From Escherichia coli 042 (GTDB taxonomy: Bacteria; Pseudomonadota; Gammaproteobacteria; Enterobacterales; Enterobacteriaceae): a DNA stretch of 64,000 nt. A program made the position numbers. Below, one piece after another: positions 60,901-63,900 of the stretch (positions are counted from its first letter, which is position 1; each line of letters begins with the position of its first letter). The DNA is taken from assembly GCF_000027125.1 (NCBI RefSeq), contig NC_017626.1, one strand, 5' to 3'.

Positions 60901-63900
60901 TAACTCGTTTTGAAGAGGCTAGCAAACTAGCAACAGAGAGACGTGAGGATATTCTTGAACTTGCTGGTGTTGGAACCGTAATGTCTGGTGTACTACATGA
61001 GCTCACTAGGACAACAGGCCACACTCGACAGCTGTTACAAAAGTTATCTAAAGATGAGTCTCCTGGTACTAAAGCTTTATTAACGAAGCTAGATTCGGAA
61101 ATTAAAGCGATCAATACGCGACTTCGACAGTTAGATCCTTTAACACCTTCTGGAAGGCATCGCAAAGAAATATTTAATTTGTCAGCATTGCTGAATACTA
61201 TATTAGAAGGGTATGGAGCTCGCTTTGAACGGCATAATATAATTCCAGAATTCAAAATCTCTGGAGTTGATGATACTCAACCTGTCGAAGTAAATATGGT
61301 ACGTGGTTTTGTTAGCCTTGCAATTGAGAATTTAATTACAAACTCGGTTTATTGGGTTCAGCAGGGGGGGAGAAGTGATCGTCGTATTACTTTAGAACTA
61401 GATGCAGAATCTAGGACATTAACTTTGCGTGATAATGGGCCAGGTATTTCTCCTGCAGATAAAGACAGAATTTTCACTGCAGGATTTACAATGCGACCTA
61501 AAGGGCAGGGTTTGGGTCTTTTCATTGCAGCTGAAGTGGCTACCTATCATGATGCGAGGCTTTTGTTGGACTCTGCTGATGAGGATGGCCGATATAGAGG
61601 TTTTGTCTTGGAGCTTCCAAAGGAATGATTATGGATATTCAAAAGTCATTTACTGAATCAAAAATTTTAAAAGTAGCGATCGTTGACGACGATTTGTCCG
61701 ATTTAATTACTATGGACGATCTGAATACTATAGACAAGGATATTGCCAGTTTGCTTGGTGATCCATCCGATCCTGATTGTGAAAGTTACCATGAACTACT
61801 AGCATCTGAAGGCTATGATCTTGACGAAATAGAAGATCTTGCTCAACCTCTTTCAAATAAATCAATTAGAGAAAAAGCTCCTGAGCGTCTAAAAAATGCG
61901 GCAAATAAAATTATCGAATTTCGTTATGATAACGCCAAGCCAATTAGACGTGTTAAACAATTACTACTGGAAGCTGGCATTTTAGAGGATAATATTCATT
62001 ATTATTTTAGCCCTGAAATACCTAATGAAGAGTTTTATGATCTTTTAGTGATAGATTACTTCTTGGTAAAAAATTCCTCCAAGCATACTTTACCTTTTAT
62101 CAAAAAAATACTCTCAACTCATGAAAAGGCACCAAAGCCTTTACAAGTTATTCTGATGTCGACTTATGAGGCAGAGTTAAAAGCAGAATTCAGGAATATT
62201 CGTCCCGAGATAAGAACTTCAAGCTCAAGAATGAGAATCATGAGCAAACCAATGTCTGATGATGATTTAGTATACTGGCGCTCTGCTTTGTTCCAGTTAT
62301 CTTCAGATCGACAATTTGTCGATGCAGTAGAAAAATTTGTTACTGAAACAATAAGTGGTTTTCAACATGCTGCACAAGAACAAGCTAAAAGATTATGGGA
62401 GCTTGATCTTCAGGCAATGGATATTCTCCATGAAGCTGCAACATCTGATAATGATGATTTTTGCCGCTATGTTGAAGAATGTCTAAGTAGACAATTATTA
62501 ACGGCTCTAGAAGAATGCTCTGGTATAAGAAAATCATTAGGTGTTTTAGGTGAATCATTAATAAAACATAGAGCTAACAACGTAATTGCGCCTGTTACTG
62601 AAATTGGTGATTCGAGGGCGGCAATTAGAACACTAATGAGGAGTATGGAATGGCGTGGGGGAAATACCCCTAGCATGACAGAGTTTAAAGACCCTAAAGA
62701 CAGAGCAAAGTGGATTCAGAAAAATCTGAGATTTGGAATGGTACTAAAATCACCAGATGATAAAAGATGGCTTAATTTAACTCAAGCGTGTGATCTTGCA
62801 CAAACAAAAGAGGATAATTTAAATTCGGTATCTCTCTTGCTTATTAGTGGTTCCTATGCTCGGCCAGTTGGACGTGAGAATGGGCAATCATTAGTGTATT
62901 TGAACACATCATTATCTGATGCAGGTAGTGAGGTTTTGTGTTGGGATGTACGTAATGTTCAAACGCCCTCAATATTTGATTTTGCTCAAACGTTTTATAA
63001 TGGCTGGTCAATTACTGGAGAGCTTCGTCTAGACCAGGCTCAAAGTATAGCTGCTTTATATAGTTCTCGAACTTTAAGGGTTGGTCTTCAAAAAAGGCTA
63101 AGTAGCTGGTGTCTTGATGGTAAAGCTTTATTCATAAACAAATTAAATAACAGCGCTCCAAGTGATAAAATCGAGGGTACGACTATTTCTGGTCATGCGA
63201 TGAATCGTGGTAAACCCGACGAAGTACATATCGATAAAGATAGCATGATAAAGCTTCAAAGAGATTTTCCTAATAGTATTAATAAAATATCTCTGAAATT
63301 ATATATGGGAATGCAGCTAAAGCCTGGTTCAAAAAACCAAGAAGAAGGTATTTTGATTTATTGTGCTGAAAAGCCGGAGAATATAGAATCACTTCGTAGG
63401 GCTATTAATGATAATGATTTTTTAAATCGTGATGTTAATCAAAATAAAGTGGTAATAGCTCTATGGCATAAGTGATTTGATTTATTGCTAATTTATCAGG
63501 TGTATTATTTTCTCAATGTGAGCTAATTATTTCTTTATTAGCTCACATTGATATCCATTTATGTTAAATGATAAGGGGAAATTGTACTATAAAATATAGA
63601 CCAGATTAATTTACCCCTTCTTTTTATTTATGGCAAATTGCGCATGAGCCTCCGCCTTCATCTTCCCCATAAATTTCATCAATATCAATGAGAGTCTCAC
63701 CAGGGCGTAGTGGGTTAATGATTTTTTTCGCTTTGAGTCTGGCTTGCCGCTTTTCAAAATCAGTGACAATTTGAGCAATTCTTTCAGGCTCCTCAAGTGA
63801 CTCTAGTGATTCACCTTTAGTCCAAGTAAAGGGAGAACCATGTTCAATTGCATTTTTTTCATATCGTTTAGCTTCTTCAAATGCCTCTGGGTGACGCTCT

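What the first reader, a model, noticed from the sequence alone, without database searches (positions are those of the whole stretch)
63513..63551. Perfect 15-bp inverted repeat between the novel operon and a convergent gene
TCAATGTGAGCTAAT - 9 nt - ATTAGCTCACATTGA lies 38 bp after the gene 2 stop and about 70 bp from the stop of the convergent minus-strand ORF. It is longer and more perfect than typical intrinsic terminators and lacks a clean U-tract on either side, so it may also be a recognition site for a regulator or recombinase.
Basis: seen in the sequence. Interest (0 to 1): 0.35.

Follow-up and report, generated by a model that had tools for sequence, protein, structure and literature searches.

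The report
Terminator-type hairpin between two defence operons
The perfect 15-bp inverted repeat is real, but it is best read as the RNA hairpin ending a two-gene operon that faces the sspBCD DNA-phosphorothioation genes, an ordinary transcription-end signal that has lost most of its U-tract in E. coli.

Summary
The repeat is exactly as described: 63513-63527 and 63537-63551, 15/15 complementary, with a 9-nt loop. It is the longest perfect inverted repeat in the window and is not expected by chance.

The window is an E. coli island next to tRNA-Leu(CAA), 57438-57522. The "novel operon" encodes a GHKL/histidine-kinase protein and a receiver-domain protein. It converges on sspD, the last gene of sspBCD.

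Seven distinct orthologous islands (E. coli, Pectobacterium, Pantoea, Yersinia and metagenomes) carry a hairpin 34-49 nt after the gene 2 stop.
- The stem base (A)TGTGA/TCACA(T) is kept. The inner stem differs, with compensatory changes at 8 of 15 pair positions.
- The loop ranges from about 4 to 10 nt.
- In four of the six relatives the hairpin is followed by a clear T-run on the + strand, and the scan tool calls it a + strand terminator in two.
- The minus-strand tail is U-poor in all seven.

In E. coli the stem is longer (-20 kcal/mol) and the tail is only marginal. A second hairpin with a T-run follows 21 nt downstream.

I found no other copies, no Rfam match, and no support for a regulator or recombinase site. 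Verdict: ordinary, low interest.

The neighbouring operon looks like an undescribed Ssp partner and is more interesting than the hairpin.

The parts
63513..63527 (+). 5' arm of hairpin 1 (TCAATGTGAGCTAAT)
   Evidence: It pairs perfectly with 63537-63551.
63528..63536 (+). loop of hairpin 1 (TATTTCTTT, 9 nt)
   Evidence: In orthologues the loop is about 4-10 nt.
63537..63551 (+). 3' arm of hairpin 1 (ATTAGCTCACATTGA)
63552..63566 (+). weak, interrupted U-rich tail after hairpin 1 (TATCCATTTATGTTA)
   Evidence: Its TransTermHP-type tail score is 2.92. That passes the program's 2.5 candidate filter (PMC1852404) but is not above what the AT-rich spacer gives by chance (mean 2.70, P 0.35). Orthologues have TATTTTTAT, ATTATTTTTAT or TTTTTTG at this position.
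63573..63619 (+). hairpin 2 (AAGGGGAAATT ... AATTTACCCCTT), -10.6 kcal/mol on the + strand and -12.4 on the - strand
   Evidence: A GGGG..CCCC core is visible at the same place in L004, L006, L014 and L020. The scan tool calls it a + strand terminator in L006.
63620..63631 (+). T-run CTTTTTATTTAT after hairpin 2, overlapping the sspD stop and last codons
   Evidence: The + tail score is 3.82. Sequence.
61625..63475 (+). gene 2 (616 aa ORF; annotated start 61631): receiver-domain protein whose transcript would carry hairpin 1 at its 3' end
59244..61628 (+). gene 1 (794 aa): N-terminal GHKL ATPase (HATPase_c_3) plus a C-terminal histidine-kinase ATPase domain
63624..64000 (-). 3' part of sspD (PAPS-reductase-like), last gene of sspBCD; it runs off the window end
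   Evidence: PADLOC SspD E 1.3e-140, SspC E 0, SspB E 6.9e-115.
57438..58975 (+). tRNA-Leu(CAA) (57438-57522) and the tyrosine-recombinase integrase gene (57722-58975) marking the left end of the island

Best explanation
Hairpin 1 is the 3'-end RNA hairpin of the gene 1-gene 2 operon. It descends from a canonical intrinsic (Rho-independent) terminator that stops + strand transcription before it runs antisense into sspBCD. In E. coli the stem has been extended to a perfect 15 bp and the U-tract has largely decayed. Here it probably works as a weak terminator and pause site and as a protective 3' stem-loop. Hairpin 2 and its T-run begin 21 nt further on and act as the back-up terminator. Shown: the structure, its positional conservation, the compensatory changes, and the + strand polarity of the U-rich tails in relatives. 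Inferred: that it terminates or stabilises RNA in E. coli, and the division of labour with hairpin 2.
For: 1. Position. The hairpin starts 38 nt after the gene 2 stop, on the coding strand, in a 148-nt spacer of 26% G+C between convergent operons.
2. Orthologues. Seven distinct orthologous islands carry a hairpin 34-49 nt after the gene 2 stop.
3. Pairing. In a manual ungapped arm alignment, 92 of 105 cells pair and 8 of 15 pair positions show changes on both sides. Shifted registers pair only 25-45% of cells, and 0 of 2000 column shuffles reach the observed value.
4. Independent check. RNAalifold on its own MAFFT alignment of six spacers returns this hairpin as the only consensus structure, 12 pairs, 4 of them with compensatory changes.
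5. Tail polarity. + strand tail scores are 2.8-5.35 and - strand tail scores 1.5-2.05 in all seven loci.
6. Scan calls. The scan tool calls the orthologous hairpin a + strand terminator in Pantoea L006 (12 bp, loop 6, tail TATTTTTATG) and Yersinia L007 (11 bp, loop 4, tail ATTATTTTTA).
7. TransTermHP filters. The E. coli hairpin passes the candidate filters on the + strand only: hairpin score -13.5 and tail score 2.92 in magnitude, against cut-offs of -2 and 2.5.
8. More distant loci. L015, L016, L017 and L011 have unrelated hairpins 14-77 nt after the gene 2 stop. Position is conserved but sequence is not.
9. Other E. coli ssp loci. Each has its own hairpin between sspD and the convergent sspFGH or sspE genes.
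10. Other long repeats. Several other long perfect inverted repeats in the window have the A/T-flanked, G+C-cored form typical of terminators, for example 37261-37294, 45029-45062 and 54442-54469. Their gene context was not checked.
Against: In E. coli the U-tract is poor: 4 T in 8, with a tail score no better than the spacer's composition gives by chance. The 9-nt loop and the tail both fail the scan tool's criteria. The stem is A+T-rich, with 5 G-C pairs of 15. L014 and the Pseudomonas loci also lack U-tracts, so hairpins without a U-tract recur in this family and may do something other than classical termination. G.U versus A.C asymmetries do not favour either strand: two loci fold better on +, two on -. 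No transcript data were available.
Confidence: 0.6

Rival explanations
1. The hairpin is a two-way insulator. It stops or stalls transcription from both convergent operons (gene 1-gene 2 and sspBCD), possibly helped by head-on polymerase collisions or Rho, so that neither module makes antisense RNA against the other.
For: It lies between convergent operons. Hairpin energy is the same on both strands, -20.2 and -19.8 kcal/mol. G.U asymmetries are balanced between strands. In E. coli sspD has no canonical terminator of its own: the - tail of hairpin 2 scores 2.35, below the 2.5 filter.
Against: The - strand tails are U-poor (1.5-2.05) in all seven orthologues, and the + strand upstream flank is T-rich rather than the A-tract of bidirectional terminators. 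A minus-strand role would have to work without a U-tract.
Confidence: 0.15
2. The hairpin is a relic. An ancestral terminator lost its U-tract in the E. coli lineage and now does little. Termination is done by hairpin 2, and the perfect symmetry reflects quasi-palindrome template-switch correction rather than selection.
For: The E. coli tail is no better than chance. Hairpin 2 has a good T-run, score 3.82. All nine E. coli copies are identical, so there is no within-species evidence of constraint.
Against: Pairing was kept, and even extended to 15 bp, while the inner stem sequence was replaced. An unselected hairpin would be expected to accumulate mismatches. The template-switch idea is from general knowledge and was not tested.
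Confidence: 0.15
3. The palindrome is a DNA operator for a dimeric regulator, for example the island's receiver-domain protein, which would recognise the conserved TGTGA/TCACA half-sites.
For: (A)TGTGA and TCACA(T) are kept in all seven orthologues while the inner stem changes. Gene 2 encodes a REC-domain protein with an uncharacterised output domain.
Confidence: 0.05
4. The repeat is a recombinase core site (lox/FRT/dif-like: inverted arms around a short spacer) or the end of a mobile element, marking where defence modules are exchanged.
For: The 15-9-15 geometry loosely recalls the 13-8-13 sites. An integrase is encoded 4.5 kb away. The site lies at the junction between two functional modules.
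Against: There is one copy per genome at full length. There is no second copy in the window or in L001, and none in the plasmid, phage or IMG/VR collections. The arms differ among islands whose integrases are 71-82% identical. Loop length varies from about 4 to 10 nt. Both flanking modules stay linked across genera and in a different gene order. Other sspD loci share no homologous repeat. The island's own attachment site is the tRNA-Leu gene.
Confidence: 0.02

Closest known systems
Canonical intrinsic (Rho-independent) terminators of Enterobacteria, as modelled by TransTermHP (PMC1852404)
   Same: A stable stem-loop shortly after a stop codon on the coding strand. The orthologues have a U-tract directly after the stem. 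The E. coli hairpin passes the program's hairpin and tail candidate filters on the + strand.
   Different: The stem is longer (15 bp), perfect and A+T-rich. The loop is 9 nt. The E. coli U-tract is interrupted (UAUCCAUUUAUG) and no better than the background composition.
Bidirectional terminators shared by convergent genes (A-tract, hairpin, U-tract)
   Same: The location between convergent operons and the symmetric stem.
   Different: There is no A-tract upstream, and the minus-strand tail is U-poor in every orthologue.
The hairpins between sspD and sspFGH or sspE in other E. coli ssp loci (L002, L003)
   Same: A single strong hairpin in the convergent spacer between the modification genes and the partner module. 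In L002 it is a perfect 12-bp repeat, TAAAATGTGCAC-n7-GTGCACATTTTA.
   Different: Those hairpins lie next to sspD, carry T-runs in the sspD direction, and are unrelated in sequence. Here the hairpin belongs to the partner operon's side.
REP/BIME-type 3' stabiliser palindromes of E. coli
   Same: An extragenic palindrome at the 3' ends of operons that could protect mRNA from 3' exonucleases.
   Different: REP elements are G+C-rich and present in hundreds of copies. This repeat is A+T-rich and single-copy.
lox/FRT/dif-type recombinase core sites and the CRP-type TGTGA operator
   Same: Inverted arms around a short spacer, and the presence of TGTGA/TCACA.
   Different: No partner copy was found, the arms are not conserved, the spacing is variable, and the position is at gene 3' ends.

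Membership tests
Intrinsic (Rho-independent) terminator | Stable stem-loop directly downstream of a gene on its coding strand | tested here: met
   The stem is 15 bp at -20.2 kcal/mol and starts 38 nt after the gene 2 stop. The TransTermHP-type hairpin score is -13.5.
Intrinsic (Rho-independent) terminator | U-tract immediately 3' of the stem | tested here: inconclusive
   In E. coli there are 4 T in 8, which fails the scan tool. The tail score of 2.92 passes the TransTermHP 2.5 filter but equals the background. The feature is met in the orthologues L006, L004, L007 and L013.
Intrinsic (Rho-independent) terminator | Structure conserved through compensatory changes, with sequence free to vary | tested here: met
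   8 of 15 pairs show double changes and 88% of cells pair. RNAalifold gives a 12-pair consensus, 4 pairs covarying. Only seven sequences were available, and the alignment was manual.
Intrinsic (Rho-independent) terminator | Transcripts actually end at the site | not testable with these tools
   No transcript data. This needs Term-seq, 3' RACE or a reporter assay.
Bidirectional terminator | A-tract upstream mirroring a U-tract downstream, giving a U-tail on both strands | tested here: not met
   The minus-strand tail is GAAAATAATACACCT, score 1.58. The range is 1.5-2.05 in all seven orthologues.
REP/BIME or other dispersed palindromic repeat | Many copies per genome | tested here: not met
   There is one place per genome in nine E. 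coli genomes and no other copy in the window or L001. Isolated 15-mers elsewhere in the genomes could not be searched.
Site-specific recombinase core site (lox/FRT/dif-like) | Conserved arm sequences with a fixed spacer, plus a partner site | tested here: not met
   The inner arms differ between orthologous islands, the loop is about 4-10 nt, and no partner was found in 104 kb.
CRP-type operator | TGTGA-N6-TCACA spacing (from general knowledge) | tested here: not met
   The spacing here is 21 nt, and 18-21 nt in the orthologues (sequences).
Any Rfam RNA family | Score at or above the family's gathering threshold | tested here: not met
   The best match scores 28.4 bits against a gathering score of 50, to a eukaryotic snoRNA model. 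All matches are below threshold.

The most novel reading that the evidence does not exclude
The stem base (A)TGTGA/TCACA(T), kept in all seven orthologues while the inner stem turns over, is a sequence-specific recognition element. It would be a DNA site, or an ACA-containing RNA site, for the island's receiver/MazF-like protein or another factor, coupling expression of the phosphorothioate-modification genes to that of the partner effector operon.
Probability: 0.05. Interest if true: 0.5.

Novelty: new member of a known kind. Interest (0 to 1): 0.12.

Why it matters
The hairpin itself matters little. It is a transcription-end signal that keeps two convergent halves of a defence island from transcribing into each other. 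That is relevant for anyone cloning or expressing the system, because read-through antisense could unbalance the modification and effector modules. Its context matters more. It marks the boundary between sspBCD and a conserved two-gene module that occupies the slot of SspE or SspFGH. That module is gene 1 (GHKL ATPase plus histidine kinase) and gene 2 (receiver domain plus a MazF/CcdB-like fold). It may be an undescribed partner of the Ssp phosphorothioation system.

Tried and rejected
- **Other copies of the arm.** I searched the window with up to 3 mismatches and L001 with a 13-mer, and found only the two arms themselves; the remaining hits were at chance level.
- **Spacer against public collections.** blastn of the 148-nt spacer against E. 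coli genomes, plasmids and phages found only the nine identical loci or chance A+T-rich hits. An exact-pattern scan of IMG/VR found nothing.
- **Rfam.** A scan at E up to 10 gave only sub-threshold eukaryotic miRNA and snoRNA models.
- **Genome-contig scan.** The scan with a gene 2 alignment returned only 4 loci, and high G+C made two of them uninformative for the hairpin.
- **Metagenome scan.** A scan with the gene 2 3'-end pattern gave one true orthologue, L020, and four chance hits.
- **MAFFT arm alignments.** MAFFT placed the E. coli inner stem asymmetrically (A3, A4). The count of structure pairs could therefore not be used fairly, and I did the pair count by script on an ungapped, anchored alignment.
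- **Strand assignment from G.U versus A.C mismatches.** The counts were balanced, so no call was possible.
- **Palindromes in the promoter regions.** Neither operon's promoter region has a repeat related to the hairpin.
- **Right-end direct repeat of the tRNA (attR).** None was found within 13 kb.
- **Promoter-like sites in the spacer.** The number found was not above the shuffle expectation.

Full report
**1. The observation**

The sequence at 63513-63551 reads TCAATGTGAGCTAAT-TATTTCTTT-ATTAGCTCACATTGA. The repeat finder reports arms 63513-63527 and 63537-63551, 15 nt, 100% complementary, with 9 nt between them.

The gene 2 ORF, 61625-63475, ends with TGA at 63473-63475, so 37 nt separate the stop from the repeat. 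The convergent gene's stop codon is at 63624-63626 (RefSeq annotation mapped from L001), 72 nt beyond the repeat.

It is the longest perfect inverted repeat with a 3-20 nt loop in the window. The next are 13, 12 and 12 bp. None of 60 first-order Markov simulations of the window reached 14 bp or more.

The hairpin is part of the minimum-free-energy fold of the 150-nt stretch 63476-63625 on both strands, with z -4.4 and -5.5. Alone it is -20.2 kcal/mol on the + strand and -19.8 on the - strand. The scan tool finds no terminator-like site in 63000-64000.

**2. Context**

- The window is E. coli. The stretch 63300-64000 is 100% identical in 9 of 5426 complete genomes, one copy each, always chromosomal.
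- It lies in an island next to tRNA-Leu(CAA), 57438-57522, which begins with a tyrosine-recombinase integrase gene, 57722-58975.
- Gene 1 (59244-61628, 794 aa) has an N-terminal GHKL ATPase domain (HATPase_c_3), a weak HEF_HK match, and a C-terminal histidine-kinase ATPase domain.
- Gene 2 (616 aa ORF) has only a weak Response_reg_2 match by sequence.
- The convergent genes are sspD, sspC and sspB by PADLOC: E 1.3e-140, 0 and 6.9e-115. This is the single-strand DNA phosphorothioation module.
- The repeat therefore lies in the 148-nt, 26% G+C spacer between the 3' ends of gene 2 and sspD.

**3. Comparison with related loci**

Homologues of gene 2 (78 in the protein collection) were traced to their contigs, to genome contigs and to one metagenome contig.

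Seven distinct sequences have a hairpin 34-49 nt after the gene 2 stop. They are the window, Pectobacterium L004, Pantoea L006, Yersinia L007, and L013, L014 and L020. Their gene 2 proteins are 73-77% identical to the E. coli protein.

- The stem base (A)TGTGA/TCACA(T) is kept.
- The inner stem is GCTAAT/ATTAGC in E. coli, TAACTGG/CCAACTA in L014, and CAATCA/TGATTG or close variants in the others.
- The loop is about 4 to 10 nt.

In a manual ungapped alignment of the arms, anchored on GTGA/TCAC, 92 of 105 cells form standard pairs and 8 of 15 pair positions show changes on both sides. Sliding the partner by 1-3 positions gives 25-45% paired. None of 2000 column shuffles reaches the observed value.

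As an independent check, RNAalifold on its own MAFFT alignment of six whole spacers returns this hairpin as the only consensus structure: 12 pairs, 4 with compensatory changes.

Caveats: there are only seven sequences, the five non-E. coli, non-L014 sequences are close relatives, and the alignment was made by hand because MAFFT aligned the E. coli inner stem asymmetrically.

**4. Polarity**

I used the TransTermHP tail score, whose formula and cut-offs I checked in PMC1852404.

| Locus | + strand tail score |
|---|---|
| Window (E. coli) | 2.92 |
| L014 | 3.37 |
| L006 | 4.14 |
| L004 | 4.14 |
| L020 | 2.83 |
| L007 | 3.33 |
| L013 | 5.35 |

The - strand tails score 1.5-2.05 in all seven.

The scan tool calls the orthologous hairpin a + strand terminator in L006 (ATGTGACAATCA-6-TGATTGTCACAT, then TATTTTTATG) and in L007 (GTGACAATCAA-4-TTGATTGTCAC, then ATTATTTTTA). 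It misses L013, whose stem has one A.C mismatch but whose tail is TTTTTTG.

The E. coli tail passes the program's 2.5 filter but is no better than random draws from the spacer's own composition (mean 2.70, P 0.35). The ancestral element is therefore a + strand intrinsic terminator of the gene 1-gene 2 operon. The E. coli and L014 versions have longer stems and decayed U-tracts.

G.U versus A.C asymmetries do not help to pick a strand. L004 and L020 fold better on the + strand, and L014 and L013 on the - strand.

**5. The rest of the spacer**

A second hairpin at 63573-63619 (AAGGGGAAATT...AATTTACCCCTT) is -10.6 kcal/mol on the + strand and -12.4 on the - strand. It is followed on the + strand by CTTTTTATTTAT (tail score 3.82), which abuts the sspD stop. 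Its - strand tail scores 2.35.

A GGGG..CCCC core recurs at this place in L004, L006, L014 and L020, and the scan tool calls it a + strand terminator in L006.

+ strand transcripts thus meet two hairpins in tandem. In E. coli the sspBCD transcript has no hairpin with a tail above the filter. Its termination may depend on Rho or on these hairpins without a U-tract. That is inference.

**6. More distant loci**

- Pseudomonas loci L016, L017 and L011 and the 61%-identity locus L015 carry unrelated hairpins 14-77 nt after the gene 2 stop. They are -8.6 to -15.9 kcal/mol, and only L015 has a U-rich tail.
- Two high-G+C Xanthomonadales loci show no simple hairpin.
- In other E. coli ssp loci the spacer between sspD and the convergent partner also holds one strong hairpin.
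  - L002 (sspFGH) has TAAAATGTGCAC-7-GTGCACATTTTA.
  - L003 (sspE) has AGTGCACCCA-2-TGGGTGCACT followed by ATTTTGTATT.

A hairpin between the two modules is the rule. Its sequence is not conserved.

**7. Rivals**

*Recombinase site or mobile-element end.* There is one full-length copy per genome. Nothing was found in the plasmid, phage or IMG/VR collections. The arms differ among islands whose integrases are 71-82% identical. Both flanking modules stay together across genera, even when the gene order changes in L009 and L010. The island's attachment site is a tRNA-Leu gene in E. coli, Pantoea, Yersinia and Pectobacterium.

*Known RNA family.* There is no Rfam match above threshold.

*Still open.* A two-way insulator role and a relic without present function remain possible. 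Only transcript mapping or reporter assays can separate them from the main reading.

**8. Comparison with known kinds, and verdict**

The element works like an intrinsic terminator and is a positional orthologue of canonical ones. The E. coli copy meets the hairpin and position criteria, but its U-tract is only marginal. It is not a bidirectional terminator, a REP element, a lox/dif-like site or a CRP site.

I rate it a new member of a known kind, of low interest (0.12). I give 0.6 confidence to the reading that it is a 3'-end hairpin (terminator or stabiliser) of the + strand operon.

**9. What is more interesting nearby**

Gene 1 and gene 2 lie beside ssp genes in every full-length homologue locus with enough flank. 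There are 15 loci (14 distinct sequences), from Enterobacterales, Pseudomonas, Xanthomonadales and metagenomes. They occupy the convergent slot that SspE or SspFGH take in other E. coli.

- The SspFGH paper reports that only about 15% of sspBCD modules have sspE or sspFGH (PMC8092258).
- A 2024 reappraisal of the phosphorothioation machinery does not mention kinase, receiver or GHKL partners (PMC10853773).
- A 2025 paper on Acinetobacter only speculates about a nearby two-component system (PMC12421847).

This pair is a candidate third kind of Ssp partner. It would consist of a GHKL/histidine-kinase sensor and a receiver-controlled MazF/CcdB-like effector.

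Noticed in passing
window 59244-63475 (gene 1, gene 2); loci L004-L011, L013-L017, L020: The two-gene operon encodes a GHKL ATPase plus histidine kinase, and a receiver domain plus a MazF/Kid/CcdB-like fold. It lies beside ssp genes in every full-length homologue locus with enough flank (15 loci, 14 distinct sequences) and sits where SspE or SspFGH sit in other E. coli. It looks like an undescribed partner module of the Ssp phosphorothioation defence system. Three ssp papers were checked, and the only mention is a speculation in PMC12421847.
   Followed up: partly
window 63573-63631: A second hairpin (AAGGGGAAATT...AATTTACCCCTT) is followed by CTTTTTATTTAT and abuts the sspD stop codon. 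A GGGG..CCCC core recurs here in L004, L006, L014 and L020. It is probably the back-up + strand terminator, and possibly sspD's own weak terminator.
   Followed up: partly
window 63556-63570: A small A+T-rich hairpin, CATTTA-TGT-TAAATG, lies between the two larger hairpins and is predicted in the minimum-free-energy folds on both strands.
   Followed up: no
L016 4869-4915, L017 4870-4901, L011 7938-7970, L014 4653-4690: Several relatives also have strong hairpins after gene 2 with no U-tract on either strand. U-tract-less hairpins therefore recur between these two modules and may act by something other than classical intrinsic termination.
   Followed up: partly
L001 25373-26200 (beyond the window end); L001 14100-27300: No direct repeat of the tRNA-Leu 3' end (attR) was found within 13 kb. 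An IS110 fragment follows sspB. The island's right end seems eroded, so the integrase-gene 1-gene 2-sspBCD block may no longer be excisable in E. coli.
   Followed up: partly
L004 3690-3776, L006 3804-3888, L007 3789-3873: The orthologous islands sit next to tRNA-Leu genes in four genera. The anticodon is CAA in E. coli, Pantoea and Yersinia, and UAA in Pectobacterium. The island has therefore moved between tRNA-Leu isoacceptor genes.
   Followed up: no
L009 2389-3652, L010 2410-3646: In Pseudoxanthomonas and Dokdonella, sspCD and gene 1-gene 2 are co-directional and separated by about 1.2 kb of unexamined sequence. The linkage survives a change of gene order.
   Followed up: no
window 37261-37294, 45029-45062, 54442-54469: Other long perfect inverted repeats in the window (10-13 bp) have A/T-flanked G+C cores typical of bidirectional terminators. 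They give a baseline for what ordinary terminators look like in this genome. Their gene context was not checked.
   Followed up: no
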